A model generated the notes under the pieces. That model had not been told where the DNA came from and ran no database searches. It was given only the letters and a program-made list of their open reading frames with translations. This document shows positions 11,200 to 30,933 of a stretch of 64,000 nucleotides of DNA, piece by piece; within the stretch, counting starts at the first letter, position 1, and each line of letters opens with the position of its first letter. The DNA comes from Limisphaerales bacterium (lineage in GTDB: Bacteria > Verrucomicrobiota > Verrucomicrobiia > Limisphaerales > SXTU01): positions 959 through 64,958 of the forward strand of contig JBEBFV010000001.1 in the NCBI GenBank assembly GCA_040081795.1. The letters are read 5' to 3'. The translations under genes were made by a program, and so were the position numbers.

Positions 11200-12068
11200 G
11201 TCACTAAGAACTGGGCCTCCGCTTTTTTTGAACCCGTGGCCACGACACCCCGAACCGCACCCCGTTACGCTCACGTCCACAACTTCACGTCGCCAGGGGG
11301 AACACTGGTGTCCATGTTGCTCCCGGTCTTATTTTCCTCGACAAATGCGAGTATTTGACGCCGCATGGCGGCGTCATTTTTGAATCTTGAGTGCGTGAGC
11401 AGAGACGGATCGGTAACGCCAGAGTTTTTGGAATGACTCAGTGCTTCAGGAGCAGCAGGTGCACGGGGAGCCTAAGCACTGTCTACAACGATCCTGCTGC
11501 ACGCTGTCCACATTGCCCCGGCTGACTCCTTGGCAAGACTGCGAGCGTCGCCACTGGCCTACGTTTTCCAAACTGTTCTGCCGTCAGACTGTTGCCTGGC
11601 TTCGGTAGCTCATCCAATTCCATACCCCTAGCCTCCCCCTCAATGACATGGCTGACCGGGCACCTTCACCGCCACAGGCCCAAGTGCCCTCCTTGCCGCT
11701 CCTGACCAATGCCGTCTACCAGCATTGGCAAGGTCGCGCCAAGATGCTTGGGCCGGGAGCAGAATATGATTTGGTGGATGAGTTCTCCGACATGATGGTG
11801 CTGCGTGACTGGTCTGAGTGGCGACCCGACCCCGGCCAGCACGAAACCCCGGCAGAGTAAGCGAGGCAATCAGCGGCAGGGACGATGCCACGCACCGTCG
11901 GGTCACAAAGCCGAGTGACACCATCTGGTTGAGCCAGCCTGCGAGCGCTGCTCCGCACGGCGGGACACGGCAAAGGGGCGGCAAGCGGATGGCCGCCTAT
12001 TTCTTCCCAGCAACTTCGGACTCGAACTGAATCAGCAACACGAGTCCCCCCTCAAGTGTTGTGCGCCG

Positions 12069-13610: not shown

Positions 13611-14522
13611 ATGATTGACACCGTCCGTATCAAGACCAACCGACTCTTCCACCCAGACATCACCGACTGTCTCTCAGAGAACTGGCAGGCGACTGACTTC
13701 CAGTCAAGGGGTGTGAACGGCGATGGAAGCGGGTGGACAGGCAAAAACAGGATAACGCTGGAAGATAAAACTACCGGCCTCCGCATTGGCGGCACTCGGT
13801 TCGCAGCCGAGTGGATCGAAACTTCCCTGCCCACGTTGCTTCACGGCCACAACGGCATGCTCATCGTCAACCAGCAGGAGCTTGATGATGCCCTCGACAT
13901 GCTCTACGAGACCGTCGATCAGGTGTGCGAACCTGCCGAGGATGCGGCTGAGGACACTTTCACACGCGTGGATCCGGTCTGGCAGTTCAGGGGCAACCCT
14001 GAAGCGTTCAAGGCCGCGCATCGGAACTGCCGCCATAGACGGATTCGCAAGGAGGCAATGGAGTATGATGGCCAAGGCATGGTCTGGAAAGGCACACAAC
14101 TGAGCGTGACTCTGTATGACAAGCGATTGAAAATGTTCAAAAAGCCCGGTGACGTTGTGCGGGTCGAGGTGCGGCTCTGGGGCAAGGTGCTGCGGAAGGA
14201 GTTCACTGGATCAGAGCACGGCGACTTGAGAAATCTCTCTTTCTGGCGTTGCTACGAGGTCTATCGTGAGATCATGTGCGGCTTCTGTCCTGCGCCTATC
14301 CCACGCGTGTCCAAGCTGGCGGAATTCTTGACCCTTGGTGAGGTTGAGGGGTGGAAAACAAAGGCAGGTGTCTCGCAGTTCGACATCTGGAAGATTGGAG
14401 TCTCCCCGCGTCAGGTGAGCCGGATGCGCAGGGATATGGCGTCCCTCCGTCCAATAGTTCACCACATCGACTGGGAGACACTCTTGCCGGTGCACGAGCT
14501 GCCTCCCTTGGTCGAGTTGTAG
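13611..14522 (+). CDS. Rep_trans-like replication initiation protein (rolling-circle plasmid/phage type)
   Basis: The start MIDTVRIKT at 13611 lies within ORF 13395..14522. Motifs LSVTLYDKRLKM and VVRVEVRLWGK resemble the replication initiation factor family. Confidence 0.5.
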   Translation: MIDTVRIKTNRLFHPDITDCLSENWQATDFQSRGVNGDGSGWTGKNRITLEDKTTGLRIGGTRFAAEWIETSLPTLLHGHNGMLIVNQQELDDALDMLYETVDQVCEPAEDAAEDTFTRVDPVWQFRGNPEAFKAAHRNCRHRRIRKEAMEYDGQGMVWKGTQLSVTLYDKRLKMFKKPGDVVRVEVRLWGKVLRKEFTGSEHGDLRNLSFWRCYEVYREIMCGFCPAPIPRVSKLAEFLTLGEVEGWKTKAGVSQFDIWKIGVSPRQVSRMRRDMASLRPIVHHIDWETLLPVHELPPLVEL

Positions 14523-15868
14523 TGGGCCAGCCACTGCTGTGATGACGAAGGCCTGACCACGGACAAGCAAAAGCCAACCCGGCTCGGCACGCCACGGCAG
14601 CACGCCAGAAGACCGCTGGCCTTTAGGTTTCTGGCCGCACAAGTTGCCACGCACCATGGGGTGTGCAACTGCCCCCGTGTGCCAGTGAAGTGGAGGGCCA
14701 GACTCAGCACGACCAAGCCTGACAGTGATACTGGCTGACACGAGCAGGCGTGAAGGTGGCGCAGGCTGACCTTCAAGGCCCGCTGGCTCGTCCGCGACCC
14801 ACCGTGGCCGACCGCTGTTGCCGCCTTCACGACCTAGTCACGCAAGGCGCAGGCGCGGCCCATCGAGTCACGCCACGGCGGCGAGCTGGGCGTCCGCACA
14901 AAGCGGCTGAGTGTGAACTCATGCGGTTCACCAAGCAGAGCCTTCACCGGAAAGCTCCGACCCTCATCATGTCCGGGAGGAAGAGGCCGAGCAGTTGGAA
15001 CCTGAGCACTGCCATCACCCACGCCATGGTGTGAACCAGACGGAGCTGTGCGTGCCAGTGCTGACGGAGGGAGTCCGAGTTCACCAGCCATTGGCATGTC
15101 ACCTTCTGGCTCTTCAGGCCATGACCAGCTCGCTAGCAATGAGCACTGGAATCTCACACGCCAGTGTAGCAATGGTGGATGTCCAGAGTGAGGCAGTCAA
15201 CCTCAGCCAAGTGAGGTGCGCCTGGTCGTGAGCCTTGCCGGGAGGCAGCTGCACGGCGAGGCGGTGGGACACTCCATCCATTCATTCCCACTGCCCCAAA
15301 GGGTCAGCCAGCCATCTGCCCAAGCTGGATGGTGGATGGGCCAGCCGTCCCCCGGCTCGAAAAGGAGGAGCGGAGGCGCAGACGACGGGCGCAGGGCAAG
15401 AGGTGGACGCGCCTCCGGCGCGGGCAGCGCGGCGCCTGCGCACCGGAGGTGCGCCTCCGGGACTGCTTGGTGAGCCAGGACGAGGGTGGCCCAGACCTTC
15501 CCAGCCATCGGGCAGGCGCTGACGAGGCTCCAGCCCTCTTCTCTCCAGCAGCCCCTCGTTATCTGCCCACGCCGCCCTGTCCGTGCCTTCAAGACTGCCC
15601 ATTCCCGGCCTGTCCAGCAGGAGCAGGCGAGTCCGCTTGCCCTCGCTGTCTACTGTCTACTGACCCGCCCAGCGGTTCATTTTCAAATTGTGCACAAACT
15701 TCAAACGTGCCCAAAACCCTTGCTGGACAGGCCTATTTGCATCACACGTCGGCACCGTCTTCTCCTGCTTCCCAGACTTGAGCGCCCCGCCCCGTTAAAC
15801 CGGAACAGCGCATTCCAGACTTTGCTGTTCTTGAAGGTAGGCCGGGGTATCTGGCCGGACACGAAATC

Positions 15869-17419
15869 ATGAACATGAAGACTCACCTCAAGAAAATGCC
15901 CATTAGCGATCAACCTCACCAGCCCGCTAAAACGCACCACCTGCAAGCTGGCACGGCAGAAACACGGGCGAAAGCCGCAGACACACAAGCGGGTTCCACT
16001 GCCATCGGCGTCATGAGTGGAAACGAAAAGGACTCAACTGGCCACGGCAGTAACCCCGGTGCAAGCGACGCCGAACCAGCCTCCCCGCCAACTCCTTTGA
16101 CGGACGCGCAGCGGGAGGTGGCGGATCGGTTCAGAGACAAACGGGCGCAGCCAGATTCCACGGACCTTGAGTCCGGTTTGGACTTACTCGACATCATCCG
16201 CAACCAGCGCCTGCCCATGCGTGGAGGTAGGATATTGGACAGCGAGCAACTACTCGGCCTGGACCGCTTTGAGGTTCGCCGGTTGGTTGAGGTTGCGGAA
16301 CTGCATCGCGCCGGGCAAGGCGGCGGCAGTCCTGCCCTCGGTGCAGACGTTCGTGCATCCAAGTTCAGCGCTAGCAAGGAGCCGCCCGCCAGTCCTCCGA
16401 AGGCAGCTACCGGAGAGGGGAAGAGTGCAGCTTCGGCACCTAGCCCGGCACCGGAGAAAAAGCGCCCCGTCAAAATGAAGGAAGAGGCGACGGAGGCCAA
16501 CGCACTACAAACCGGAGCACCGGTTCAAAGCCTCGCCAATCCATCAGTCGAAACGGTTCAGCCCGGCCCGGAAGAGCCTACCCGTGCAGGTGAGAAAACG
16601 CCTGAAGATCCAACTGGCACAGGTGAGATTCCATCAGCCACCAGGCAAAGGAAAAAGCGTCAAACGGTCGCCAATCAAGCTGCCGACAAGGCGACCGTCG
16701 GCACCACGCTCACGCTCATCGAACAGGAGCAGCGCCTCATCCAGTTGGAAACCATCGTCGAGAACGGCTTCACCACTTTGTGGGAGATGGGCAAGGCCAT
16801 GCTCGAAATCCGAGACACGAAGCTTTACGTGAAACGCTACAAAACCTTCGAGCGATACTGCGAGCAACGCTGGGCCAAGCATCGGTCTCGCTGCTACCAG
16901 CTGATGGACGCCGCCGAGGTCCAGCAGAATTTGTCCATGTCCACCCAGGTGGACATTTCTGAGCTAACCGAGAAGCACTGCCGGGAGTTGGTCAAGCTCA
17001 AGAAGCCCGCAGACCAACGCACAGCTTGGAAGGAGGCGGCAGCGTCAGCGGACGGCACCGTGTCGCTCGTGCATCTGAAGCAGGCGGTGGCAAAACTCCG
17101 GCCTCCGGCTCGACCGCTGCCCGCCGACAAAGCCCCGGCAACCGCCGCGCCTGTAGCAGGGGCAGCGGAGGGCACACCCGATCACGCAGTGCCCGCCGAA
17201 ACTCATGAAGAGCCAACCACTGACCAGCCTGAGTCTCCACCTGCCACCGGCCCCGCAGCCTTTGCCCGCGATGAGTTCGACCTCGACGAGGAGTGGCTCG
17301 TCGTCGAGCAGACCCTCACCAGCCTGTTCCGGCGCTGCCCCAAGTATCGGTGGCCGGTCTTGTGGAAACGATTGAATGGCTATTTTGAGAAAAATCCTGA
17401 ACTCATCCCTGCTGACTAG
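15869..17419 (+). CDS. Hypothetical protein: low-complexity N-terminus, DUF3102-like C-terminal region
   Basis: 516-aa ORF. The segment WEMGKAMLEIRDTKLYVKRYKTFERYCEQRWAKHRSRCYQLMDAAEV resembles plasmid/phage DUF3102-type proteins. Confidence 0.5.
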   Translation: MNMKTHLKKMPISDQPHQPAKTHHLQAGTAETRAKAADTQAGSTAIGVMSGNEKDSTGHGSNPGASDAEPASPPTPLTDAQREVADRFRDKRAQPDSTDLESGLDLLDIIRNQRLPMRGGRILDSEQLLGLDRFEVRRLVEVAELHRAGQGGGSPALGADVRASKFSASKEPPASPPKAATGEGKSAASAPSPAPEKKRPVKMKEEATEANALQTGAPVQSLANPSVETVQPGPEEPTRAGEKTPEDPTGTGEIPSATRQRKKRQTVANQAADKATVGTTLTLIEQEQRLIQLETIVENGFTTLWEMGKAMLEIRDTKLYVKRYKTFERYCEQRWAKHRSRCYQLMDAAEVQQNLSMSTQVDISELTEKHCRELVKLKKPADQRTAWKEAAASADGTVSLVHLKQAVAKLRPPARPLPADKAPATAAPVAGAAEGTPDHAVPAETHEEPTTDQPESPPATGPAAFARDEFDLDEEWLVVEQTLTSLFRRCPKYRWPVLWKRLNGYFEKNPELIPAD

Positions 17420-17495: not shown

Positions 17496-18365
17496 ATGTC
17501 ATCCATGGATACCTTCCTCGCCACTAAAGCCGAGATGCGCCGCGTCGCCCGCGCTCAGATGAAGCGCGGTGTCCGGCAGAACTGCCACGCCTGCCACAAC
17601 TCCGCCCATGGCGGCAAACTCCGCTCGCCCGACCAAGGGCGATTTTTCCCCACCGGTCACGGCCTCTTCTGGGTTTGTTGTTCCTGCCTCACCCGCATGT
17701 CTGTGCGTGACCGTAAGCGGATGCGTGACTCTCTGGAGCGCAGGGGCTTGCCCTACACCTCTACATTGTCCGTTCCTGTTCCACCTACCAGGGAGCAGCT
17801 CCGCCGCCGAAGGCCCAAATACTGCTCGGAGTGTAACAACGGCTTGGGTGGCCGAGTGCTACTCTCCTCCGACCAGGGCCAGTTCCTCATCGACCACCGG
17901 GGTGAGCGCTGGGTATGCCACCGCTGCATCAACCAGAGCAACTGCGCCGCCTGCACCTCCCCGGATGAGAAGCAGCTCCACGCGTGGCTGGTCTCCGAGC
18001 ATATAAGCCACCGGATGCAGGCCTTGATTGGTGGCGAGCTGTTCGATTGCCACATTACGGATTGGGACCTGCTTATCGAGTTGGGCATCCGGTCGGCCCA
18101 TCCTACCGCCGCCCAAACGAAGAAAGACTGGCAACGTAACCGGATTGCCAAAGAGCACAATACCCGCCTCCTGTGCTTGCAGTGGGATGATCGGGACTCG
18201 GTTGCCAAGATACAGGCAGCCCGAAAGCTGGATGAGCGTCCACAGCAACAGCCTGCTTTCAGAAGCCTTTCACCTTGGGCACCGCCGCACTATTACGTTC
18301 AGGCAGATCGTGAACCGGAGGGGATTCCCTCGGACACGCCGCCAGAAGACGCGCCATGGCAGTAG
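17496..18365 (+). CDS. Cys-rich protein with two internal zinc-ribbon-like repeats
   Basis: CHACHNSAHGGKLRSPDQGRFFPTGHGLFWVCCSC is repeated as CSECNNGLGGRVLLSSDQGQFLIDHRGERWVCHRC. Confidence 0.5.
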   Translation: MSSMDTFLATKAEMRRVARAQMKRGVRQNCHACHNSAHGGKLRSPDQGRFFPTGHGLFWVCCSCLTRMSVRDRKRMRDSLERRGLPYTSTLSVPVPPTREQLRRRRPKYCSECNNGLGGRVLLSSDQGQFLIDHRGERWVCHRCINQSNCAACTSPDEKQLHAWLVSEHISHRMQALIGGELFDCHITDWDLLIELGIRSAHPTAAQTKKDWQRNRIAKEHNTRLLCLQWDDRDSVAKIQAARKLDERPQQQPAFRSLSPWAPPHYYVQADREPEGIPSDTPPEDAPWQ

Positions 18366-18476
18366 TTAGGCGATGGCTGCTCCCGTCAAAACCATCCGGC
18401 TCCTGATGCACGAAAAGGATTTCCTCGCCATGTTCTCGCCCATCACGAGGTGCCTGGCTGGAGCCTTCCTCTGGAG

Positions 18477-18893
18477 TGTAGACACCAACCCACCCATCTA
18501 CCAGTCTACAGGATCTCTAGCTGACCAGGTCAGGTTAAGGAGCCTGTCTACAGCGTGGTCGCCGCCCGCCGAGTGTCGTGGTGCATCACATAGCGACTTG
18601 GGGCTGGCGAGAGATTACCGCGAACAGATCGGTGGCGGCGGTGTTTCCGCTCCCGGCGAGGGTGCTCGTCACGATGGAGACAGCGCCAGCAAGCAACCGC
18701 CAACCAGTCCTACGCACGCGGCAGCCGCAGCTGGTGGGAGCACAACGCAAAAGCAATTTCAGCCGCCGCCGTGTGGCGTTTCCACTCCCCGTCTGAGGTC
18801 ATCCTGTCTACAAGTTCCGTGTAGACAGGATGGTTGAGTGCCCGGCCCAAACGGATGAGCGGTGCAAGGTTCCTGAACAAGGGACTGTCTACA
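18477..18893. promoter_or_regulatory. Cluster of TGTCTACA/TGTAGACA sites including a perfect 12-bp inverted repeat
   Basis: Sites lie at 18477-18484, 18503-18510, 18545-18552, 18803-18812, 18820-18829 and 18885-18893. ATCCTGTCTACA-AGTTCCG-TGTAGACAGGAT spans 18801-18831. The cluster sits just upstream of the gene starting at 18982. Confidence 0.5.
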
Positions 18894-18981
18894 AAACGGC
18901 CACGTTCTATGCGTGACGGCCATGCTTGGTGGCAGACGGGACCCTCCAGTCTCGCAGACACCGGTGACCGCAAAACAAAAA

Positions 18982-19668
18982 ATGAAAGACCAAATGAAGA
19001 AACAAGCCCTTGGAACTCAGCCTGACCACTCAGCTCACAGTCATTCCCACCGCCGCACTCGTGCCGGTAGTGCGACGAAACCAAGTCAGGACTACACACC
19101 TACAAGCTCGACCGCTCATGCCGCAGGCACCAGCGCGGCCAGCGCAGCACTCAACCTCCCTGCGATCACCGTGCCCGACGGCTGGACGCCACAGCGTGAC
19201 CGCGAACACTTCGATTCCCAGTGGGACTGTGGGGACAACAAACGCCACGAGGCCGCATTGGACCTTGTCGCCGACGGACAGCACCGTCTTGGTGCCACGC
19301 TCGTCGTTGGTCGGAGCATTCTGCTTTGCGCCGGGGGAGGTGCTGATCATGCCGCCATCGTTCACCTATCGTTAGCTTGCCAGGTAAGCCTTCTGGAATC
19401 CGCACTCGGTGCATACCCACCTCCCGGTGAAGATCGCTTCTTCGTCGCCGCCAAGAAGTGTCGCATAGCCGTGGCTGAAAGTGATCGGATACTGATGAAG
19501 TTGGCCACCAACCCTGAAGGCACGACGCTCCTAGAATTGTGCGTGGCATCAGAATGGCTGTTCAAGGCGGCGTGGGGATTGGAACAGTGCTTCCGGATGG
19601 AATTCGATGGCTCTCAGTCCCTGTTCAGCGACATCGACGATACTTGGGATGGCGAAATACCCGACTGA
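18982..19668 (+). CDS. Hypothetical protein, paralog A of a duplicated island gene
   Basis: MKDQMKKQ.. start within ORF 18913..19668. The C-terminal ~190 aa are near-identical to 23109..23789 (TVPDGWTPQRDREHFDS..MEFDGSQSLF.DIDD.WDGE.PD). Confidence 0.6.
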   Translation: MKDQMKKQALGTQPDHSAHSHSHRRTRAGSATKPSQDYTPTSSTAHAAGTSAASAALNLPAITVPDGWTPQRDREHFDSQWDCGDNKRHEAALDLVADGQHRLGATLVVGRSILLCAGGGADHAAIVHLSLACQVSLLESALGAYPPPGEDRFFVAAKKCRIAVAESDRILMKLATNPEGTTLLELCVASEWLFKAAWGLEQCFRMEFDGSQSLFSDIDDTWDGEIPD

Positions 19669-19884: not shown

Positions 19885-20673
19885 ATGAGCAATGTCATCC
19901 TGACTCCCGGCAGCCCCAACTCGATGCCAGTCGAACCTGACCCAGCACCTTCAGCGCAGCCCTATGCGCTGCCAGCGTCTCATCCAGAGCTGCCGCCACT
20001 CAACACGGATGACCCAGCCCTGTTGGCCAGACTGGAGCGGCAGCTTGGCAGCGGCAAAACGCCATCGTCTACAGTGGCCACAGCGGTGGCGACCATCAAG
20101 CGCAAGGGACTGGCGAGGCTCCACCAGCTTACCTTTCACGAATACTGTTCCCAGCGCCTCCGCCTCAAAAAAAGCCGCATTCACCAACTCTTGGAATTTG
20201 CGGAGCTACTTGAGGCCACGTCGGCTTCAGGCACTCTGCCTCAAGCCGATAATGAAAGGCAGCTTCGCCCATTGAAAAGGTTGCCGCGTCCAGACTGGGC
20301 GGACGCTTGGCGGGAAGCAGTCCGAACCGCTCTGGACGGAGTGATCACAGGGAAGCACGTCGAGCAGGTCGTAGATTCCAGGCTCGCACGGAAGCAGATC
20401 GCCGAGTCACTCGCCAGTCAGCCCACGTCCGACCAGCCGCCAGCGCAGGCCACCATGCCAACGACCTCAGCTGACATGGTGGACACCAGCACGCCGGTGC
20501 ATTCCACCACGTCGGCTCCAGAGCGAAGCACCACGGAAATCATCCCGACCGTTCCGGATTCTGAGATCAGGTTGTCAGGATGGAAGCCTGCATGGCAGGA
20601 GATTCTCCGTGCTGCTCCGCGCCCGTCCTCCTCACTCAGGTCTGGGATTTTCGGTTGGCAGGCCCCTGATTGA
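19885..20673 (+). CDS. Hypothetical protein (DUF3102-like central segment)
   Basis: 262-aa ORF. KRKGLARLHQLTFHEYCSQRLRLKKSRIHQLLEFAELL resembles the segment in 15869..17419. Confidence 0.45.
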   Translation: MSNVILTPGSPNSMPVEPDPAPSAQPYALPASHPELPPLNTDDPALLARLERQLGSGKTPSSTVATAVATIKRKGLARLHQLTFHEYCSQRLRLKKSRIHQLLEFAELLEATSASGTLPQADNERQLRPLKRLPRPDWADAWREAVRTALDGVITGKHVEQVVDSRLARKQIAESLASQPTSDQPPAQATMPTTSADMVDTSTPVHSTTSAPERSTTEIIPTVPDSEIRLSGWKPAWQEILRAAPRPSSSLRSGIFGWQAPD

Positions 20674-21270: not shown

Positions 21271-22114
21271 CCCCCTGTTACGGGCAACCTGCTCCCGACG
21301 GCCAGCGCCCCGGAAAAGTCCTCTCTGGCCCCACCGATGAACTCCACTCATCGAGGCATAACCTTCAGCGCTGCCCACACTTGTGGTGATGCGCGCAGGA
21401 GAAATCGGCTGGAATCTTGCTTCGGGTGCAGACCGTGGACGTTGAAATCACTTCACGTCCAGAGAGCACTTTTGGCCGGTTGAAAGCCGATAACGGCTGC
21501 GGAGAGCGCACTCTCAGTCCTCGAATTTTGACCATTTTCCACATCCGAGCCTCAGAAAATGCCACTTCTGGCAGACTCCACGCCTTTGAAAACACGTCGC
21601 AAAATCAGCATTTGGTGGACGCTCCGGCGGCAGAATATCCTGCCACAGGCATTGATGGAGTGGGTTAGATGAGCATGCTCCTTGGTGCTGGTCCTCGATG
21701 CGGTCGCGGGGTTATCCCACCATTGCTCGCATGGTCGCCGCGCCCATCCACCAGAGCTACGCTCCTGTCAGGCGTTGGATCTCCTGTTGCCATCAGGGAG
21801 TTGGTGAAGCCGAGCATTGCGAGGTGCATGGCACACCCGGACGTGCGAACGGCTGCCGTTGGCTGATGGCACGCTCACCGCTCATGTGAGCAGATGACGA
21901 CCCCATCTGCGGTGATGCGAAGCGGGTGGCTCATGGCATCAGGCGCTTGCCACGGCCACGGAGATTATTCCAAGTTGCAGCGCACCGACCAACCATTGGT
22001 CGCCAGCTAGGGAATGGGTGGCAGCAGTTCGAGACCGTCGGGTGTTCCAGACTTTGTCTACAAAGATCCAAGCAAGGATTGTTTGGAGGTAGGCAGTTCT
22101 TAGGGGTGTGCGCA

Positions 22115-22810
22115 ATGAGCGCGAACTCAACCAAAGAACTACCAATGAAATCCACCGAGGCCTCCTCACCCAAAGTTATCACTCCTGAACTCGACTCAAC
22201 TGCGCGGCAGCCTGACCGCCGACCAGCTCAACGTGGCCGCGTGCCTTCCGCGCCGCAGGAGGCAGCCGCTGTCCTGCACGCCGCTCCGCCGTCAACAGCA
22301 AGCGTGGACGACTGGGTGGAGGACATCCGGCGGGCGAATGGAGGCAGCACGCGTGCCATCGTGGAGTTGGGTCGGCTCATCCGCGAAGCCAAGGAGGCCC
22401 TTGGGCACGGCAAGTGGCTGGCCCTGTTCAAGCAGAAGCGTCCCGGCTTCGGCCTGCGCCGCGCAGAGATGCTCCTCAAGATCGGCGGCAACGAGGCGCT
22501 CGCAAAGTCGCAATGGTTTGCGAATTTGCCGCACGGCATCGTCGTGCTCTATGAACTAAGCCACATTCCCGCAGACCAGCTCGAACGGCTCCTAGATGTG
22601 GGCAAGGTGCATCAGCGGCTGACGCGGGCGCAGGCACGGACCCTCGCTGGAAGGGATAAGAATGACCACGAACGCGCCTTCGATCTTGTGAAAGCTGAGC
22701 AGCGCCTCAAGAACCTGCTAGACCAAGAGGTCGTGCGGTGGCCGGGCGAGCAACTTGGCGGCTTCGTCACGGTGGTCGAGGATGTCCTGGTCAACGTAAA
22801 AACCGGGTGA
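22115..22810 (+). CDS. DUF3102-like protein
   Basis: Start at an internal Met of ORF 21926..22810. IVELGRLIREAKEALGHGKWLALFKQ..FGLRRAEMLLKIGGNEAL matches the DUF3102 pattern. A CTTTGTCTACAAAG palindrome lies at 22052-22065 upstream. Confidence 0.55.
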   Translation: MSANSTKELPMKSTEASSPKVITPELDSTARQPDRRPAQRGRVPSAPQEAAAVLHAAPPSTASVDDWVEDIRRANGGSTRAIVELGRLIREAKEALGHGKWLALFKQKRPGFGLRRAEMLLKIGGNEALAKSQWFANLPHGIVVLYELSHIPADQLERLLDVGKVHQRLTRAQARTLAGRDKNDHERAFDLVKAEQRLKNLLDQEVVRWPGEQLGGFVTVVEDVLVNVKTG

Positions 22811-23108
22811 GCAGTCCGTGAGCACCAGCCACATCGTCCAGCACCAGGGCCTCCACGCCGCCAGTCATTTCGTTGGCCTCCATGAACACGCACCGCGCAG
22901 ACTGAACGACCCACCAGTGTATCCCGTCGCTCCGACTGCGGCACTGAAGCCGATCCCGCCGGTAAGTGGACAGAAAATCGGCTTCAAATCCTGTCCACGA
23001 TCAGACCTCCCGTTTCTGGCTTAATGCACTCGTCGCCTCCAGATCGGAGGCCCGAACGAGTGCAGAGTCGTTATGCGCGCTCGTGTGGCCGCAAGTTCAA
23101 ACACTAAC

Positions 23109-23789
23109 ATGAAAACGCATCAGAAGAAGAAATCCACTGTGTCTAACCGTCCAACTCACCGTCACGCCCGCCGACGCACTCGTGACGGTATTGTGGCGAA
23201 ACCAAGCGAAGAGCGCAGACGCACCAACTCGACCGCTGATACCGCAGGCACCAAGACGGCCAGCGCGGCATTCACCGTCCCGACGATCACCGTGCCCGAC
23301 GGTTGGACGCCACAGCGCGACCGCGAGCACTTCGATTCGGAGTGGGACTCCGAGGACAACAAACGCCACGAGGCCGCATTGGACCTTGTCGCCGACGGAC
23401 AGCACCGACTTGGTGCCACGCTAATCATTGGGAGAGGTATCCTGCTCTGTGCCGGGGGAGGTGATCATCATGCCGCCGTCGTTCACCTACCATTGGCTTG
23501 CCAGGTAAGCCTGCTGGAATCGGCACTCAGTGCCTGCCCGCCTCCCGATGAAGATCGCTTCTTCGCAGCCGCCAAGGAGTGCCGCATAGCCGTGGATGAA
23601 AGTGAGCGGATACTGATGAAGTTGGCCAGCAACCCTGAAGGCACCACGCTCTGGGAATTGTGCGCAGCATCAGAATTGTTGTTCTTGGCGGCGTGGAAAA
23701 TGGAGGCGAGTTTTTGCATGGAATTCGATGGCTCTCAGTCCCTGTTCGCCGACATCGACGATTCTTGGGATGGCGAAACGCCCGACTGA
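23109..23789 (+). CDS. Hypothetical protein, paralog B of duplicated island gene
   Basis: MKTHQKKK.. start within ORF 23073..23789. Highly similar to 18982..19668. Confidence 0.6.
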   Translation: MKTHQKKKSTVSNRPTHRHARRRTRDGIVAKPSEERRRTNSTADTAGTKTASAAFTVPTITVPDGWTPQRDREHFDSEWDSEDNKRHEAALDLVADGQHRLGATLIIGRGILLCAGGGDHHAAVVHLPLACQVSLLESALSACPPPDEDRFFAAAKECRIAVDESERILMKLASNPEGTTLWELCAASELLFLAAWKMEASFCMEFDGSQSLFADIDDSWDGETPD

Positions 23790-24100: not shown

Positions 24101-24691
24101 AACTCCGGCCTTCACGCGCAACACCGGCTTAATGGCCGGCGTCCCGAAAATGCTCACTCTGGCCAGGCCGATGAACGCGGCTCATCAAGCACAACCCCCG
24201 GCGCAGAGCGCACTTGCGGAGTTCCGGGTATGCGAAATCGTCGCGAATCTCACGCCAAAGGTTGAACGTGAGCGCTCGAAATGCGTTGTGTCCGAGACGC
24301 GCTTTCGTGCCGGTTTGAAGCCGTTGGCGGCGCATGAAGCGCACTCCCAAGCCCTGTTTCCTTGCACTTTTGCCTCCCGAAACCGGCCAAACTGGCACTT
24401 ATTACCGAGGCTGCGCACTCGCCGAAGCGGGTGAAAACCAGCTTTTGGTGGATGTGGTGGTGACGGCGTATGTGACCATGACGCCATGGAGGGATACCGG
24501 CCCACCAGACCCCCTTCATCGCTCAGACTGCATTTGTCCCACCGTGGAAGGGATGATGTGGATTGTCTCGGTCGCCTGATGATGACGAGCCGCACCCCGT
24601 GGCCATCCAGGCGCACGAGCGAAAAATCGCGAATGCACGCTCGACAGAGATTTTCACCAAAGCCATTCTTGGCGGCAGTGACCGCAGGACC

Positions 24692-25654
24692 ATGAGGACA
24701 GCAGCGCCATACCGGATTTCGGGCCACGAGTCGTTCTCGTGCCGCTACACATGGTTACCCAAAGCCGTTCGTGGACTGACCGAGAATGGCAAGCTCTTCT
24801 CCGATGAAGCGAAGGCCATGGTCGTTTTAGGCCTCGGCAAGAACATGGTGCGCTCCGTCAGGTTCTGGGCACAGGTCGCCGGGATGACTACCCCCGGGAC
24901 CAAAGGCGATGGGCACCTGCTCACCGATTTGGGCCGGGCGCTTCTCGGTGAGCGCGGACTCGATCCGTTCTTGGAGGACATTCGGACGCTCTGGCTGCTG
25001 CACTGGAACCTGTCCACCGACACCAAAACTCCGCTCCTCGCTTGGGACTTCCTGCTCAACCGCTGGCAGGAACCTGAAATGGTGCCAAGCGTAGTGCTCC
25101 GGGCACTGGAAAGGGAGGCCGCCAGGCAGGGCGAATCTCCCTCGCCTGTGACCATCAACCAGCACTGGGACACGTTTCTCCACACCTACGTGCCGACTCG
25201 TGGGCGCAAAGGAGAAGTGCAGGAAGACAACCTCGATTGTCCGCTCGTCGAACTTGGACTTATCGTGCGCGTAGGGGAGCGACCTGTAGACAAGGCCGCC
25301 GGGCGCGCTGAGCCAATTTTCGCCTTCCGGCGTGAGGAAAAACCGGACATCACGCCAGAACTTTTTGTCTACAGCTTGAATGATTTCTGGAACAGGCGTC
25401 ACCCGGAGGAGGGCACAATGACCTTCCGCGAGGTCGCACACGGACACGGCAGCCCCGGCCAAATTTATAAACTGCCGGAGGACGACGTGCGGGCGCGGGT
25501 TGAACGATTGGCCCAGCAGACGAAGAGTTCCTTTGCTTACACTGAGTCCTCAAATCTCCAAAGGGTTCAACGCCGCGAGCGGCGCGAGAGCATTGACTTG
25601 CTGGACGACGTGTTTCGACAGGAGGGAAGAGCATGGCTGAAAAGCGCATTGTAG
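24692..25654 (+). CDS. sspB: DUF4007-family protein, SspB-like (phosphorothioation nickase candidate)
   Basis: The N-terminal hallmark YRISGHESFSCRYTWLPKAV (F.GHE.F.CRY.WL.K) of DUF4007 follows Met 24692 within ORF 24563..25654. The gene is followed by an ATPase and a PAPS-reductase gene. Confidence 0.75.
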   Translation: MRTAAPYRISGHESFSCRYTWLPKAVRGLTENGKLFSDEAKAMVVLGLGKNMVRSVRFWAQVAGMTTPGTKGDGHLLTDLGRALLGERGLDPFLEDIRTLWLLHWNLSTDTKTPLLAWDFLLNRWQEPEMVPSVVLRALEREAARQGESPSPVTINQHWDTFLHTYVPTRGRKGEVQEDNLDCPLVELGLIVRVGERPVDKAAGRAEPIFAFRREEKPDITPELFVYSLNDFWNRRHPEEGTMTFREVAHGHGSPGQIYKLPEDDVRARVERLAQQTKSSFAYTESSNLQRVQRRERRESIDLLDDVFRQEGRAWLKSAL

Positions 25655-28600
25655 ACGTATTCAATATCAAGAGCCGCTTCCTGCGCTCGGCGCACCTTGA
25701 GCGAGACTTTCACGACACCGACGCGCTCTCCGGCTACGTCCGAACGGAGTTCATCCAGGGGTGCTGTGACCGTATTGGCGACGGCCTTCGTCCCAAGTCG
25801 GGCCGCAGGGCATGGCGCGTGACCGGCGATTACGGCTCAGGCAAATCCAGCTTTGCCCTGCTGCTCGCAAACTCGCTCGGCGGGCGCGACCATGACCTTC
25901 CCCCACAGCTCCGTCGGGTAATTGATTGGAGAAAACTTGGCGTGGAGCAACCCGCGTTTCTCCCGGTCCTGGTCACCTGCTCCCGGCAGCCACTCGGCAC
26001 TTCCATTCTACAGGCGTTGCACACGAGCATCTCTGCGGTCTACAAGCGCGGAGCGAAGTCCATACCTGCCGAACACATCCAGCAGCTGCTTAACGCCAAG
26101 CCTGAAGCAAGCGATGAACAAATTGTAGACACCATCCTTGCTGCCAATTGCCAGATCATCGCCGACTCAAAAGGGCATGGACTGCTGCTGATTGTAGACG
26201 AGTTGGGCAAGTTTCTCGAATTCGCTGCCCTCAATCCGCACAGGCAAGATGTCTTCCTGTTGCAGCGCCTTGCGGAGGCCGCGTCGCGGAGTGGGAATGA
26301 ACCTTGGTTCCTGGTTGGCCTGTTACACCAAGGCTTCAACGCCTACGCCGACCATCTCAACCAGTCCGCGCAGAGGGAATGGGAGAAGGTTGCCGGGCGT
26401 TTCGATGAAATCGTTTTTGACCAACCAGTGGAGCAAATTGGCCATCTCATCGCGTCCGCGCTGAACGTCCGAGTTGACCAAATTCCCAGACCGCAGTCGT
26501 CCTGGATGCGGCACGGGATGGAGGATGCGTTGAGATTGGACTGGTTTGGAGGAGCGCAGCGGCAGCCGCTCATGGACTTGGCCCTGCGGCTCTTCCCCCT
26601 CCACGCCACTGTGCTGCCGATTCTCATTCGCGTGTTCAAGCGCTTTGGCCAGAACGAGCGTTCGCTGTTCAGCTTTCTGCTTTCCAACGAGCCATTCGGT
26701 TTGCAGGCGTTTGGCGAACAGCGACTACACGACGCACAACCATACAGGCTCCACAATCTTTTCGACTACGTCCGCAGCAACTTCGGCCACAGGTTGAGCG
26801 TTCACAGCTACAGAAGTCACTGGAACCTTATTGAGTCAATTGTTGAAAGTTACGCGACCGACGAGGCGCTACACATCCAGATTCTCAAGACGGTTGGCAT
26901 CCTGAATCTGCTAAACGACGACCTGCTGGCCACGGAGGACTCGGTGGTGTGCGCCGTGGCTGGCGATGACCGCGTGCTTCAACGTCAGGCCAGGAACGCG
27001 TTGGACAAGCTGCACCGGGCCAAGCGCGTTCTCTACGACCGGGGTCGTGGTCGCGGCCTGTGTCTATGGCCGCATACGTCCGTTGACCTGGAGCAAGCCT
27101 ACGACAATGCGCGCCGCGCCGTGCAGACTCCACAGCGCGTCGCCACCCTAATCAAAGAGCATCTTGAGACGCGCCCCATCGTCGCTCGCAGGCATTACAT
27201 CGAGACCGGCAATCTCCGGCACTACGACGTGCGCTACTGTTCAGTCACGGAACTGTCGGGCCTGCTCCCGGAGAAGCTCGGCAATGCTGATGGCGTCATC
27301 GTTGTGCCGCTGTGTGAGACCGTCGCCGAGCGAGATGTTGGGGTCGCGTTCACGAGGACAAACGGACTCAAGGATCGGAAGAACTGGCTGGTGGCGGTGC
27401 CGCAACCGTTGAGCAATCTGGCCAGTTTGGTGCAGGAAGTTCAGCGGTGGGAGTGGGTTGCCACGAACACGCTCGAATTGAATGCGGACAAGTATGGCCG
27501 TGAGGAAGCCTCACGCCAACTTCAAGCAGCACGGGCACAATTGGAGCGGCGTATCCAGGCGCAGGTCGGATTCAAGCAGTTTGGGGAGCGCACCTCCCTT
27601 GCGTGGTTTCACAAAGGCAACCCGCTTGAAATTCGGGATGGTCGGCAGTTGCTTTCCAAACTCTCGCAGATCTGCGATGAAACGTATGCTGACGCGCCGA
27701 GAATCCATAACGAACTGGTGAATCGCCGCAACCTGAGTTCCGCAGCGGCGGCGGCTCGGATGCGGCTTGTTGAGAGAATGTTCACCCACGGCAATTCGGA
27801 ATGGCTGGGAATGGACTCCGCCAAGAAGCCGCCGGAGATGAGCATGTATCTGTCGGTGCTGCTCCACACCGGAATTCACCAGCGGCACGACGGCTCATGG
27901 CGCATCGGTGAACCTGATAAAATCCATGACGAGAAGCGCAACGTCCTGCCCACTCTCAAAAGGATTCGAGAAATTGTGCAACGTCAGCCCGATGCCCGCG
28001 TGAGCGTCGCCGCCCTGTTCGAGGAACTGCGCAAGCCGCCGCTCGGTGTGCGTGACGGCATGATTCCACTTCTGCTCACGGTGTTCGCGATCACGCACGA
28101 GAAAGACGTGGCTTTCTACAAGGACGGCAGCTTCCTTCGCGAAATGACCGGAGAGGCGATGCTTGTCCTCACCAAGATGCCGGAGCGCTTTGAGCTTCAA
28201 TACTGCAAAATCGAAGGCGTCCGGGCAGAGCTTTTCGAGAAGTTACTGAGTGTGTTGGAGGTCAAGCCCACCGGCGAGCGCCGCACAGAGTTGTTGGACG
28301 TGGTCAAGCCACTGTGCGTTTTCGTGGCCCAGCTGCCTGCCTACGTTCACAACACGAAGAAGCTCTCGTCAACAGCGCTGGCTGTGCGGGATGTCATCCT
28401 CGCTGCGCGTGAACCTGCCCGTCTGCTCTTCATTGACCTGCCCATAGCGTGTGGTTTCGAGCCATTCTCGGCCAGCGCCGCAGCGACCAAGGAATTGCAG
28501 ACGTTTATTCGAGCCTTGAAGGCCGCACTCGACGAACTCCGGGCAGCGTTCCCGGAATTGCAGGAGCGTCTACGGAAATTGCTACGCGAAGCGTTCGACC

Positions 28601-29085: not shown

Positions 29086-29089
29086 AGCC

Positions 29090-29899
29090 ATGAGCAAACC
29101 CACGCGCCACATTCTCTGCATGTCCGGGGGGAAGGACAGCACCGCCCTCGCGCTCTACATGCGTGACCGGGTGAAGGACATGGAATATGTCTTCTGCGAC
29201 ACCGACAAAGAGTTGACCGAGACGTATGAATATCTGAACCGCGTCGAGGCATTCTTGGGCAAGAAAATTGTCCGACTCAATGCGAAAGCTGGATTCGACC
29301 ACTGGCTTGACGTGTTCGGTGGTTACCTGCCCTCACCGCACATGCGCTGGTGCACCAAGCTGCTCAAGCTGAAGCCGTTCGAGGAATACGTTGGTGATGA
29401 ACCAGTGGTCAGCTACGTCGGCATCCGGGCCGATGAAGACCGAGAGGGCTACATCAGCACCAAGGAGAACATCAAGGCAACCTTTCCGTTCAAGGAAGAC
29501 GGCATCGGATACGCAGGCGTCATGAAGATTTTGGTGGATAGCGGCATCGGGATGCCGCCCTACCTCAAGTGGGGTCGCACGCACTCTGGCTGCTACTTCT
29601 GCTTCTTTCAGCGCCCGATTGAGTGGGTGCGGCTGCTCGAAAACCATCCTGAACAATTCGAGGCTGCCATGAAATACGAGAAGGTCACGGACGACCCCGG
29701 CAAGACTTTCACTTGGATTCAAGGGATGCCGTTGACCGAGCTACGCAAGCCGGAAACCATCGAGGGCATCAAGCGCCGCTACGCCGAACACGAGGAACGC
29801 AGGAAAGCCAACCGTGGGAACAAGCGTCTCGTCGAAGTGCTGGCCGGGATGGATGAAGAGGACGACGGGCCAAAGGCGTGCCTCATCTGCCAACTTTAA
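29090..29899 (+). CDS. sspD: PAPS-reductase/PP-loop ATP pyrophosphatase family protein, SspD-like
   Basis: PP-loop motif CMSGGKDSTALALYM. 269 aa. The start is 4 nt after the sspC-like stop. Confidence 0.8.
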   Translation: MSKPTRHILCMSGGKDSTALALYMRDRVKDMEYVFCDTDKELTETYEYLNRVEAFLGKKIVRLNAKAGFDHWLDVFGGYLPSPHMRWCTKLLKLKPFEEYVGDEPVVSYVGIRADEDREGYISTKENIKATFPFKEDGIGYAGVMKILVDSGIGMPPYLKWGRTHSGCYFCFFQRPIEWVRLLENHPEQFEAAMKYEKVTDDPGKTFTWIQGMPLTELRKPETIEGIKRRYAEHEERRKANRGNKRLVEVLAGMDEEDDGPKACLICQL

Positions 29900-29921
29900 T
29901 CGTTCACAAGCGAAAACGGGA

Positions 29922-30923: not shown

Positions 30924-30933
30924 TCGCAAATTT

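What the first reader, a model, noticed from the sequence alone, without database searches (positions are those of the whole stretch)
18470..18895. Dense cluster of TGTCTACA/TGTAGACA sites (operator- or iteron-like) and island-wide enrichment of the word
Within ~430 bp upstream of the gene starting at 18982 I count six copies of the 8-mer. They include a convergent pair (18477-18484 / 18503-18510) and a perfect 12-bp inverted repeat ATCCTGTCTACA-N7-TGTAGACAGGAT (18801-18831).

Related sites sit upstream of other island genes:
- Tandem CTGTCTA-CTGTCTA at 15646-15662, before the gene at 15869.
- The palindrome CTTTGTCTACAAAG at 22052-22065, before the start at 22115.
- CTGTCTACA at 11479-11487.
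- A variant CTGTCCAC/GTGGACAG pair at ~22965-22998.

By eye the 7-mer GTCTACA/TGTAGAC occurs at least 15 times, all between ~11.4 and 33.2 kb, and nowhere in the flanking ~40 kb. A rough composition-based expectation is about 5 for the whole window. This looks like the binding-site set of an island-encoded regulator, partition protein or Rep protein.
Basis: seen in the sequence. Interest (0 to 1): 0.55.

Follow-up and report, generated by a model that had tools for sequence, protein, structure and literature searches.

The report
TGTCTACA binding-site word of mobile island
A mobile DNA island in a Verrucomicrobial (Limisphaerales) genome carries many copies of the short word TGTCTACA, in front of its own genes and even inside its anti-phage defence genes, most likely as landing sites for a DNA-binding protein the island encodes; it is a new example of a familiar kind of control system, not a new principle.

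Summary
TGTCTACA occurs 11 times (0.5 expected) and GTCTACA 20 times (2.3 expected). All copies lie at 11.5-35.0 kb, inside an integrative island (about 8.6-40.5 kb) of a Limisphaerales MAG. The island runs from a tyrosine integrase, through uncharacterised core genes, to SspBCD-SspFGH defence cargo. The 18,477-18,893 cluster has five exact 8-mers plus one 7-mer, including a perfect 13-bp inverted repeat. It is non-coding.

Related elements from other metagenomes keep the word in otherwise unalignable intergenic DNA: 16 TGTCTAC in 20 kb, against 1 in 72 kb of same-clade control DNA. One site sits about 215 bp upstream of the o516-type gene in three elements.

Ten copies lie inside the ssp genes, where synonymous-codon shuffles expect 1. 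They are built partly with rare codons and are absent from orthologous ssp operons.

The best reading is recognition sites of an element-encoded DNA-binding protein. The most plausible binder is o516 or its paralog o262. Both carry a ParB/Noc-like helix-turn-helix domain but lack the ParB CTPase domain, and the island has no ParA. This resembles KorB-OB on plasmid RK2. Nothing supports iterons or a replication origin. Binder and function remain inferred.

The parts
18477..18552 (.). Site group 1: TGTAGACA (18477-18484), AGTCTACA (18503-18510) and CCTGTCTACA (18543-18552).
   Evidence: Lies just 5' of the gene relic and is not homologous to L001 or L002 at this position.
18580..18717 (+). Relic of the internal part of an o516-type gene. 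It separates the two site groups and contains no site.
   Evidence: BLASTP of ORF154 against P0133 residues 231-288: 59% identity, E = 3e-16. tblastn confirms 18580-18717 only.
18800..18832 (.). Perfect 13-bp inverted repeat CATCCTGTCTACA-N7-TGTAGACAGGATG. It holds two head-to-head sites and is the candidate main operator of P1.
   Evidence: As a DNA hairpin it folds at -14.3 kcal/mol, z = -3.75. The extended half-site ATCCTGTCYAC has 4 exact copies in the window.
18886..18893 (+). Site TGTCTACAAAA, 95 bp upstream of the P1 start.
   Evidence: Conserved in relative L001 (TGTCTACAAAAA, 94 bp before its P1-like start).
15647..15660 (+). Tandem TGTCTAC-TGTCTAC, 221 and 214 bp upstream of o516.
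   Evidence: A site sits at the same distance in L008 (-216) and in L010 (-213, plus an inverted partner at -172). It is the only solidly conserved block in a three-way alignment.
11479..11513 (+). CTGTCTACA plus the variant CTGTCCACA, between the xis-like HTH gene and the o303 gene (this interval is interrupted by an IS630-like ORF).
   Evidence: L008 has TTTGTCTACAAAC in the equivalent xis/o303-like intergenic region.
22052..22065 (.). Near-palindromic site CTTTGTCTACAAAG, 59 bp upstream of o294.
   Evidence: The same extended form TTTGTCTACAAAG occurs in L010 (6637), and near-identical forms occur in L001.
22965..22998 (.). Variant inverted pair GTGGACAG-N18-CTGTCCAC upstream of P2, with the same core spacing (27 bp) as 18478/18504 (26 bp).
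25285..26199 (.). Six intragenic GTCTACA copies in the 3' end of sspB and the 5' end of sspC (25285-, 25367+, 25650-, 26038+, 26124-, 26193-).
   Evidence: Orthologs have 0-2 copies in the same span, and four copies are unique to the window.
30291..35031 (.). Five further intragenic copies: 30291+ (DUF262 gene), 32210- and 33167- (sspF), 34754- and 35025+ (sspG).
   Evidence: The four in sspF and sspG are absent from the L006 orthologs and were made with the codons GTA, AGA and CTA; the DUF262 gene at 30291 has no L006 ortholog to compare.
15869..17419 (+). o516 (ABMA26_00055), the candidate binder. Residues 290-407 (16736-17089) form a ParB/Noc-like HTH domain. There is no ParB N-terminal domain.
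19885..20673 (+). o262, a paralog of the o516 domain (residues 47-163) and a second candidate binder. It lies downstream of P1 on the same strand.
   Evidence: BLASTP 32% identity over 119 aa, E = 2e-12. The P1-o262 pair is conserved in L001.
18982..19668 (+). P1 (ABMA26_00065), the gene directly downstream of the cluster. All-helical, function unknown. Paralog of P2.
   Evidence: Only 6 relatives among 5.8 billion proteins. The structure model is poor, pLDDT 50.
23073..23789 (+). P2 (ABMA26_00080), paralog of P1.
22115..22810 (+). o294, a weak DUF3102-like protein.
   Evidence: PF11300 E = 4e-4, 21 bits against a cutoff of 24.4. phrog_15609 E = 8e-7. No relation to the o516 family by hhalign.
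17496..18365 (+). o289, a Cys-rich protein with two CxxC...CxxC modules, ending 8 bp before the non-coding cluster region.
   Evidence: sequence. Conserved in L002 at 90% nucleotide identity. No family hit.
13611..14522 (+). o303 (the 375-aa ORF, true start at M73), a core gene conserved in L008. Function unknown.
   Evidence: 56% identity to the L008 ortholog. No HMM hit.
8972..9883 (-). Tyrosine integrase at the left end of the island.
   Evidence: PF00589 E = 2.6e-6. phrog_1 integrase E = 2e-15.
24563..40500 (+). Defence cargo: SspB, SspC, SspD, a DUF262 protein, a SIR2 protein, SspF, SspG, SspH.
   Evidence: PADLOC hits at E = 1e-108 down to 0. Pfam.
44221..44258 (+). Outlying variant site TGGACAAAC...ATCCTGTCCACGA, beyond the ssp genes.
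   Evidence: Exact ATCCTGTCCAC match; sequence. The neighbouring ORFs have no family hits.

Best explanation
TGTCTACA (non-coding consensus YTGTCTACAAA, core GTCTAC) is most likely the recognition word of a sequence-specific DNA-binding protein encoded by a family of integrative elements of Limisphaerales.

Shown:
- The word is strongly enriched.
- It is specific to this element family.
- It is kept in the intergenic DNA of relatives.
- It sits at a fixed distance upstream of the o516-type gene.
- It has been written into the ssp coding sequence against codon usage.

Inferred:
1. The 18,477-18,893 cluster is the control region of P1 (and of o262 downstream on the same strand). It consists of two site groups brought together around a decayed o516-type gene. 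The 13-bp inverted repeat acts as the main dimer-binding operator.
2. The binder is the element's own ParB/Noc-type HTH protein, o516 and/or its paralog o262. Neither has a CTPase domain. It would autoregulate through the sites about 215 bp upstream of o516.
3. The same protein also occupies the dispersed intragenic copies. This gives element-wide control, such as silencing or compaction of the costly defence cargo, comparable to KorB acting from dispersed OB sites on plasmid RK2.
For: - Enrichment. GTCTACA is the top 7-mer with or without the cluster.
- In the island's core region the sites are almost all intergenic and lie upstream of o516, P1, o294 and the xis/o303 interval.
- Relatives keep the word where the DNA no longer aligns: L001, L002, L008 and L010. 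Pooled, TGTCTAC is 16 in 20.1 kb against 1 in 72 kb of same-clade DNA, p = 3.6e-10.
- The site about 215 bp upstream of the o516-type gene is the only conserved block in three elements.
- Inside the ssp genes there are 10 copies against 0.98 expected under synonymous-codon shuffling (0 of 1000 shuffles reach 10; maximum 4). It is the top outlier of 5,441 words.
- These copies use rare codons: GTA accounts for 9 of 22 Val-Asp pairs in the ssp genes, against 0 of 22 in host genes. AGA and CTA are also used.
- Orthologous ssp operons elsewhere carry 0-2 copies.
- The o516 domain gives marginal profile hits to HTH_ParB (PF17762; 5 of 50 family members, best E = 4.5e-5) and to the Noc DNA-binding domain (E = 0.024).
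- A confident model of the domain (pLDDT 94) has Noc as its best PDB match (probability 1.0, TM 0.58, E = 0.1).
- o262 shares the domain.
- KorB precedent for action from distal operator sites: PMC11790492.
Against: - No binding data exist.
- The ParB/Noc-HTH assignment is marginal: all E-values are above family thresholds and Foldseek gives E = 0.1.
- Other island proteins could be the binder: o294, the o289 zinc-ribbon-like protein, the HTH_17 xis-like protein, or P1/P2.
- The core word is asymmetric. Only the CT/AG centre of TGTnnACA is enriched, unlike the 13-16-bp palindromes of ParB, KorB and Noc.
- Coding copies differ at position -1: C in 10 of 21, against T in 22 of 26 non-coding sites. 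They may therefore be weaker sites, or a partly different phenomenon.
- sspH (5.3 kb) has no 7-mer copy.
- All related loci are short contigs, so element-wide enrichment has been seen in one full element only.
- L011, a more distant o516 homolog, has no sites, which neither supports nor contradicts the model.
Confidence: 0.6

Rival explanations
1. The intergenic sites are ordinary promoter-proximal operators of a local repressor or activator. The intragenic ssp copies have no function of their own and reflect history or an unknown mutational bias.
For: - Non-coding and coding copies differ at the flanking position.
- One coding copy (sspC +491) is also present in the unrelated operon L006, so some copies can arise without this element.
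- sspH has none.
Against: - Ten copies against 1 expected under synonymous shuffling, the top outlier of 5,441 words.
- The copies are made with rare codons.
- The gains are specific to this lineage relative to three orthologous operons.
- The word found in coding sequence is exactly the intergenic one.
Confidence: 0.15
2. The sites form a centromere-like (parS/NBS-type) set used for segregation or compaction of the excised circular element. The 18.5-18.9 kb cluster would be the main loading region.
For: - ParB/Noc-like HTH domain.
- Dispersed sites, some inside genes, as known for parS and Noc-binding sites (general knowledge).
- The o516-domain family occurs on 99 plasmids and in no phage record.
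Against: - No ParA-type ATPase was found in the island proteins scanned, and no ParB N-terminal CTPase domain.
- There is no evidence that the element replicates or persists as a circle.
- The sites are 7-8 bp and asymmetric.
- A conserved position upstream of genes fits regulation better.
Confidence: 0.1
3. The word is a promoter element, for example the -10 or -35 box of an alternative sigma factor, shared by the island's transcription units.
For: - The sites lie 59-221 bp upstream of starts.
- Several copies read GTCTACAAT, which contains the -10-like hexamer TACAAT.
Against: - Both orientations occur equally (11 plus, 9 minus), including inverted pairs 7 bp apart.
- No second conserved box is found at a fixed distance.
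- No sigma-70-like promoter was found in the cluster.
- No sigma factor gene was found in the island.
Confidence: 0.07
4. The cluster is a replication origin. It would be either iterons for a Rep protein or a rolling-circle double-strand origin, with the 13-bp hairpin as the nick site.
For: - A perfect 13-bp inverted repeat with a 7-nt loop.
- From my own reading of the sequence, not backed by any profile, o303 has a 'YDK...RVEVRL' pattern reminiscent of Rep_trans/CRI initiators.
Against: - No regular direct-repeat array was found; Tandem Repeats Finder reports only the 7-bp doublet at 15646.
- No AT-rich stretch and no excess of DnaA boxes.
- No HMM support for a Rep assignment.
- An origin does not explain the dispersed and intragenic copies.
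- The repeat region is not conserved in L001 or L002, whereas the word is.
Confidence: 0.05
5. The signal is a composition artefact. Either the foreign island simply has different word usage, or the host avoids GTMKAC-type sites, so that the island only appears enriched.
For: - The host lineage strongly avoids many hexamers, including GTCGAC (0 against 30 expected).
- GTCTAC is somewhat low in the flanks (2 against 4-9 expected) and in same-clade control DNA (3 in 72 kb).
Against: - Enrichment holds against the island's own order-3 background and against synonymous shuffles.
- The island shares the host's avoidance pattern, so it is not compositionally naive.
- The flank depletion is not significant.
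- Clustering of six copies in 417 bp cannot be compositional.
Confidence: 0.03

Closest known systems
KorB and its OB operators on IncP-1 plasmid RK2
   Same: - One short word is spread over a whole mobile element: next to promoters, at a distance from them, and far from any promoter.
- It is bound by an element-encoded protein with a ParB-type DNA-binding domain.
- That protein acts as a global repressor from distal sites (PMC11790492; the count of 12 OB sites is from my own knowledge).
   Different: - KorB has the ParB N-terminal CTPase domain and works as a sliding clamp with KorA, TrbA and IncC (ParA). o516 and o262 have no such domain, and no ParA or KorA was found.
- OB is a 13-bp palindrome; this word is an asymmetric 7-8-mer.
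- The element is integrative, not a plasmid.
- Homology of the DNA-binding domain is marginal.
ParB-parS and Noc-NBS (chromosomal ParB-family site sets)
   Same: - Multiple specific sites, some inside coding sequence.
- The best structural and profile match of the o516 domain is the Noc DNA-binding domain.
   Different: - Those sites are 16-bp palindromes.
- The proteins need the CTPase domain for spreading or membrane binding.
- Neither feature is met here.
Omega repressor heptads of plasmid pSM19035 (inc18 family)
   Same: A 7-bp unit is used in direct and inverted orientation upstream of several plasmid operons, serving as both operator and centromere (own knowledge, not checked here).
   Different: - Omega is a ribbon-helix-helix protein that binds 7-10 contiguous heptads. 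Here the sites are spaced 7-260 bp apart and also dispersed inside genes.
- No RHH protein was identified.
Plasmid iterons
   Same: Repeated short sites clustered near core genes of a mobile element.
   Different: Here there is no regular spacing, no single orientation, no 17-22-bp unit, no AT-rich region and no recognisable Rep gene.

Membership tests
ParB/KorB/Noc-type site set (ParB-CTPase family protein plus specific sites) | Binder carries the ParB N-terminal (ParB/Srx) CTPase domain. | tested here: not met
   No ParB N-terminal (ParBc-type) hit in o516, o262, o294 or any other core protein, even at E <= 5. The only ParB-fold-related domain in the island is DUF262 of the defence gene at 29814.
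ParB/KorB/Noc-type site set (ParB-CTPase family protein plus specific sites) | Binder carries a ParB-type helix-turn-helix DNA-binding domain. | tested here: inconclusive
   - PF17762 E = 0.006-0.044, below the cutoff. 5 of 50 family members match, best E = 4.5e-5.
- Profile against the PDB: Noc 6y93/7ol9, E = 0.024.
- Foldseek: Noc 7nfu, probability 1.0, TM 0.58, E = 0.1.
ParB/KorB/Noc-type site set (ParB-CTPase family protein plus specific sites) | Site is a 13-16-bp palindrome. | tested here: not met
   The core is the asymmetric TGTCTACA. Only the CT/AG centre is enriched. Some non-coding copies extend to the near-palindrome TTTGTCTACAAA.
ParB/KorB/Noc-type site set (ParB-CTPase family protein plus specific sites) | Partner ParA/IncC-type ATPase encoded nearby (for the partition role). 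| tested here: not met
   No ParA/CbiA/AAA_31-type hit in the island ORFs scanned.
ParB/KorB/Noc-type site set (ParB-CTPase family protein plus specific sites) | Several dispersed copies of one site over the replicon, including promoter-distal or intragenic ones. | tested here: met
   20 copies over 24 kb, 12 of them intragenic.
Iteron-type replication origin | Array of directly repeated 17-22-bp units with regular spacing. | tested here: not met
   Tandem Repeats Finder and the repeat search find none in the cluster. Orientations are mixed and spacings are 15-260 bp.
Iteron-type replication origin | Adjacent AT-rich region and DnaA boxes. | tested here: not met
   GC is about 0.59-0.61 around the cluster. 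DnaA-box matches are 4 against 4.4 expected, none in the cluster.
Iteron-type replication origin | Cognate Rep initiator gene. | tested here: not met
   No Rep family hit for o303/o375 or any core ORF in Pfam, NCBIfam, PHROGs or the PDB.
DUF3102 (PF11300), for o294 | Score at or above Pfam's gathering threshold (24.4 bits). | tested here: not met
   20.4-21.0 bits, E = 4e-4 to 6e-4, covering 42 of 129 profile positions. phrog_15609 E = 8e-7.
SspABCD-SspFGH phosphorothioate defence (context of the intragenic copies) | SspB, SspC, SspD and SspF, SspG, SspH homologs present in one cluster. | tested here: met
   PADLOC: SspB 3e-108, SspC 0, SspD 9e-112, SspF 1.5e-213, SspG 3e-195, SspH 0. No sspA gene was recognised next to them.
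Integrative mobile element | Integrase at one end, composition shift, and flanking host genes. | tested here: met
   Integrase. GC 0.51-0.62 against 0.64-0.67 in the flanks. AcrB/OEP genes on the left and a sulfatase on the right. att repeats were not found.

The most novel reading that the evidence does not exclude
A large, unnamed family of ParB/Noc-HTH-like proteins lacks the CTPase domain. It has more than 10,000 cluster representatives and is frequent on Nostoc and Streptomyces plasmids. In this reading, it acts as an element-wide 'addressing' system. In this Verrucomicrobial integrative element, the protein would recognise a 7-8-bp word that selection has spread over the whole element, including at least 10 copies forced into phosphorothioate-defence genes with rare codons. 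This would let the element silence, compact or segregate its core genes and its costly defence cargo as one unit, without any ParA or CTP switch.
Probability: 0.25. Interest if true: 0.7.

Novelty: new variant of a known kind. Interest (0 to 1): 0.5.

Why it matters
If confirmed, this would give a first function and a first DNA target to a very large uncharacterised protein family that is common on cyanobacterial and Streptomyces plasmids. It would also give a first regulatory handle on mobile elements of Verrucomicrobia, whose core genes here have almost no database matches.

The accumulation of the word inside ssp defence genes, against codon usage, is a clean and testable signature that a mobile element's regulator has taken hold of its defence cargo. 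That bears on how costly anti-phage systems are kept in check on mobile islands.

It is not a new principle. Dispersed operator or centromere words are known from KorB, ParB and Noc.

Tried and rejected
- An exact search for the 13-bp inverted repeat in one-genome-per-species contigs found nothing.
- Protein-guided scans of GTDB genomes, JGI metagenomes and IMG/VR with P1 and o303 alignments found no relatives. The element family is visible only in a few short Logan/ENA contigs.
- The word-index homolog search with the o516 domain returned nothing, although HMMER found 10,306 relatives.
- No Rfam family matches the island.
- Literature searches for the word itself returned only primers. The DUF3102 literature is uninformative.
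- I tested whether TGTnnACA with any centre is enriched, as expected for a dyad-symmetric half-site model. Only CT/AG is.
- I tested whether the signal reflects host avoidance of AccI-type GTMKAC sites. GTCGAC is indeed absent, but so are many other palindromes in both island and flanks. The depletion of GTCTAC in the flanks is not significant.
- I looked for a distinct motif around the distant homolog in L011. None was found.
- o294 is not related to the o516 family by hhalign.
- No att direct repeats were found at the presumed island ends.
- The plasmid neighbourhoods of o516-domain homologs were uninformative; all are hypothetical proteins.
Full report
**Observation**

- TGTCTACA/TGTAGACA occurs 11 times in the 64-kb window, against 0.53 expected from dinucleotide-preserving shuffles.
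- GTCTACA/TGTAGAC occurs 20 times, against 2.3 expected.
- No shuffle reaches either count.
- All copies lie between 11,481 and 35,031.

The cluster upstream of the gene at 18,982 has five exact 8-mers plus AGTCTACA at 18,503. The inverted repeat is 13 bp, not 12: CATCCTGTCTACA-N7-TGTAGACAGGATG, 18,800-18,832.

Modelling only the island with an order-3 Markov chain, GTCTACA is 20 against 2.7 expected (p = 1.4e-11). It is the most enriched of 6,699 7-mers. It stays first when the cluster is cut out: 14 against 2.2.

**Context**

The window comes from a Limisphaerales (Verrucomicrobiota) MAG, on a contig of 79,310 bp.

The word-bearing region is an integrative island. Its GC content is 0.51-0.62, against 0.64-0.67 in the flanks. 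It lies between an AcrB-AcrB-OEP efflux operon and TPR and sulfatase genes. Its contents, left to right:
- a tyrosine integrase, 8972-9883, minus strand;
- a weak HTH_17 xis-like ORF;
- an IS630-like ORF with only HTH domains;
- a block of core genes with essentially no database matches: o303 (13611-14522), o516, o289, P1, o262, o294, P2;
- a defence cargo of SspB, SspC, SspD, a DUF262 protein, a SIR2 protein, SspF, SspG and SspH.

P1 and P2 are paralogs, and only six relatives exist among 5.8 billion proteins.

**The cluster is non-coding**

ORF 18373-18837 is not conserved. In relative L002 the ATG is ACG and a stop follows after 28 codons.

The GenBank record has only one locus tag between o516 (ABMA26_00055) and P1 (ABMA26_00065). 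I infer that this tag is o289.

The GC-rich middle of the region, 18580-18717, is a relic of an o516-type gene. It is 59% identical to residues 231-288 of P0133, E = 3e-16. No site lies in the relic. The cluster is therefore two site groups, 18477-18552 and 18800-18893, on either side of a decayed gene.

**Conservation in relatives**

Few relatives exist, and all are on short metagenomic contigs. They are nevertheless informative.
- **L001** (P1-like, 86% amino-acid identity) aligns with the window only from 18,835 onward. Its unalignable upstream 270 bp still holds two more sites. The site 95 bp before P1 is conserved.
- **L002** joins an o289-like gene to a P2-like gene through an unrelated spacer that holds TGTCTACA, TGTCTAC and GTAGACA.
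- **L008/L009 and L010** are more distant elements, with core proteins 50-73% identical. They carry 4 and 5 GTCTAC copies. Nearly all are TGTCTAC and nearly all are intergenic.

In the window, L008 and L010, a site lies 213-221 bp upstream of the o516-type gene. It is the only solidly conserved block in the three-way alignment of those upstream regions.

Pooled over related loci, TGTCTAC occurs 16 times in 20.1 kb. In DNA from the same host clade (window flanks, L005, L006, L011) it occurs once in 72 kb, p = 3.6e-10.

The non-coding consensus from 26 sites is YTGTCTACAAA. Some copies extend to the near-palindrome (C)TTTGTCTACAAA(G). Among the ten distinct centres of TGTnnACA (16 dinucleotides, reverse complements merged), only CT/AG is enriched, so the core is truly asymmetric.

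**Copies inside coding sequence**

Twelve of the 20 copies are intragenic. Eleven of those lie in the defence-cargo genes; 10 fall within the non-overlapping gene spans used for the shuffle test.

Shuffling synonymous codons within each ssp gene keeps the protein and the codon usage unchanged.
- Shuffles give 0.98 ± 0.92 copies (maximum 4 in 1000), against 10 observed.
- Among all 5,441 7-mers in these genes, GTCTACA is the top outlier, p = 1e-7. The next word is at 1e-4.

The copies use rare codons.
- GTA-GAC encodes 9 of 22 Val-Asp pairs in the ssp genes, against 0 of 22 in host genes.
- All four Ile-Val-Asp triplets are ATT-GTA-GAC.
- AGA and CTA are used elsewhere.

Orthologous ssp operons in other contexts have far fewer copies.
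- L005 has 0 in 15 kb and L006 has 2 in 20.7 kb.
- L007, the closest relative (81% nucleotide identity), has 2 where the window has 6.
- Only the copies at sspC +17 and +491 are shared.

These gains are therefore lineage-specific and act at the DNA level. Orientation is balanced, 11 plus and 9 minus. This argues against an RNA-level signal or a polar signal of the Chi or KOPS type.

**Candidate binder**

o516 (residues 290-407) and o262 (residues 47-163) share a domain: 32% identity, E = 2e-12.

The domain belongs to a very large family with no Pfam model. It has 10,306 cluster representatives at E <= 1e-3.

Its links to known families are marginal but consistent:
- HTH_ParB (PF17762): 5 of 50 members match, best E = 4.5e-5. 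o516 itself scores 0.006-0.044.
- A family profile hits the Noc DNA-binding domain, 6y93/7ol9, at E = 0.024.
- A confident AlphaFold model (pLDDT 94) has Noc 7nfu as its best PDB match: probability 1.0, TM 0.58, E = 0.1.
- In the viral structure library it weakly matches DUF3102 and ParB-like proteins.

Homologs lie on 99 plasmids, mostly Nostoc and Streptomyces, and in no phage record. All are annotated as hypothetical.

Neither o516 nor o262 has a ParB N-terminal CTPase domain. No ParA was found in the island proteins scanned.

The putative recognition helix AKHRSRCYQLMDAAEV is identical in the window and L008. It differs partly in L010, which has the word. It differs more in L011, which has no copy in 8 kb. 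This is compatible with o516 being the binder but proves nothing.

o294 is only a sub-threshold DUF3102 match and is unrelated to the o516 family by hhalign.

**Interpretation**

The data support a functional cis-acting word that is recognised by a factor specific to this element family.

The positions fit operators. Sites lie upstream of o516, P1 and o294 and in the xis/o303 interval. There are inverted pairs and a perfect 13-bp repeat.

The extra copies forced into the defence genes call for something beyond promoter-proximal control. The nearest analogy is KorB of RK2, which represses from promoter-distal OB sites (PMC11790492).

The analogy is functional only. Three membership features of a ParB/KorB system were tested and not met: the CTPase domain, a palindromic site and a ParA partner.

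Rivals:
- A replication origin or iteron array is unlikely. There is no regular array, no AT-rich region, no DnaA boxes and no recognisable Rep gene.
- A promoter element is unlikely because both orientations occur equally and no partner box exists.
- Composition or host avoidance does not explain the signal.

**Limits**

- No binding or expression data exist.
- The HTH assignment is marginal.
- Only one complete element is available.
- The right-hand boundary of the island is uncertain. An exact ATCCTGTCCAC variant site lies at 44,248, and att repeats were not found.

**Verdict**

It is a site set of a familiar functional kind, in a wholly uncharacterised element and protein family. Its unusual feature is a well-documented spread into defence-gene coding sequence. 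Interest is moderate.

Noticed in passing
window 14928-15480 (also L008:3623-4145, L010:1896-2400): A stretch of about 540 nt between o303 and o516 is about 82% identical across three elements whose flanking proteins are only 50-63% identical. It carries 1- and 2-nt indels, so it is non-coding. There is no Rfam match. RNAalifold predicts an extensive structure with 10 compensatory pairs, but only three sequences are available. It is a candidate large non-coding RNA or a transfer/replication origin of this element family.
   Followed up: partly
whole window and loci L001-L011: Many hexamers are extremely avoided (order-3 expectation in brackets): GGCGCC 2 (70), GAGCCC 0 (46), CCGCGG 1 (46), CTCGAG 0 (31), GTCGAC 0 (30), CTGCAG 0 (26), GAGCTC 1 (30), GACGTC 0 (22). 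The island, the flanks and all related metagenomic loci share the pattern. This points to a host clade under heavy restriction pressure, and to an island long resident in it.
   Followed up: partly
window 24563-40500: A compact defence island holds SspB, SspC, SspD, a DUF262 (NsnA/GmrSD-like) protein, a SIR2 (ThsA-like) protein, and SspF, SspG, SspH. No sspA gene was recognised next to them. Orthologous operons (the P0009 contig, for which no DNA was retrieved, and L006) carry different genes between sspD and sspF, including a ParB_N protein in L006.
   Followed up: partly
window 15869-15960, 18982-19070, 23106-23190: o516, P1 and P2, and their relatives, share a basic, His-rich N-terminal leader (MK.H.KK...QPDH.AH.H..RRTR) ahead of unrelated C-terminal domains. 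Further duplicated segments lie at 19015-19314/23136-23435 and 21144-21273/23976-24106. The core region looks like a mosaic of recombining modules.
   Followed up: no
window 44221-44258: An exact copy of the extended variant half-site ATCCTGTCCAC, as found upstream of P2, lies here with an upstream TGGACAAAC partner. It sits 3.7 kb beyond sspH, at the 3' end of an unknown 210-aa ORF. Either the island extends to about 44.6 kb or the factor has a target outside it.
   Followed up: partly
window 15813-15842 and 22045-22094: The upstream regions of o516 and o294 share two boxes, TTCCAGACTTTG and GRAGGTAGGC, about 26-30 nt before the ATG. The spacing between the boxes differs between the two regions. 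These may be promoter or leader elements.
   Followed up: no
window 10401-10421 and 10670-10709: A direct repeat CCTGTCAGT-TTT-CCTGTCAGT, and a run of TCTAGC/TCTAAC/TCTAGC/GCTAGA units, lie next to a truncated AAA_16 ATPase ORF (10435-10677, minus strand) near the integrase end. They may be recombinase arm sites or a second operator set.
   Followed up: no
window 12069-13115 (minus strand): An IS630-like ORF has HTH_29/HTH_32/HTH_28/HTH_23 domains but no DDE-domain hit. It sits in the xis/o303 interval, which is uninterrupted in L008. It is either a decayed insertion or a domesticated DNA-binding protein.
   Followed up: no
window 17496-18365: o289 contains two similar Cys-rich modules (C..C.....G.L.S.DQG.F....G..WVC..C), suggesting a tandem zinc-ribbon. 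A shorter homolog of 175 aa precedes the o516-like gene in L008. It is another possible DNA-binding candidate.
   Followed up: no
o516 domain family (P0127-P0276; plasmid hits H1-H15): The roughly 130-aa ParB-HTH-like domain defines a family of more than 10,000 cluster representatives that has no Pfam model. It is found on 99 plasmids (36 Nostoc, 18 Streptomyces), often in 2-4 copies per plasmid, and in no phage record. One member is fused to a Dam methyltransferase.
   Followed up: partly
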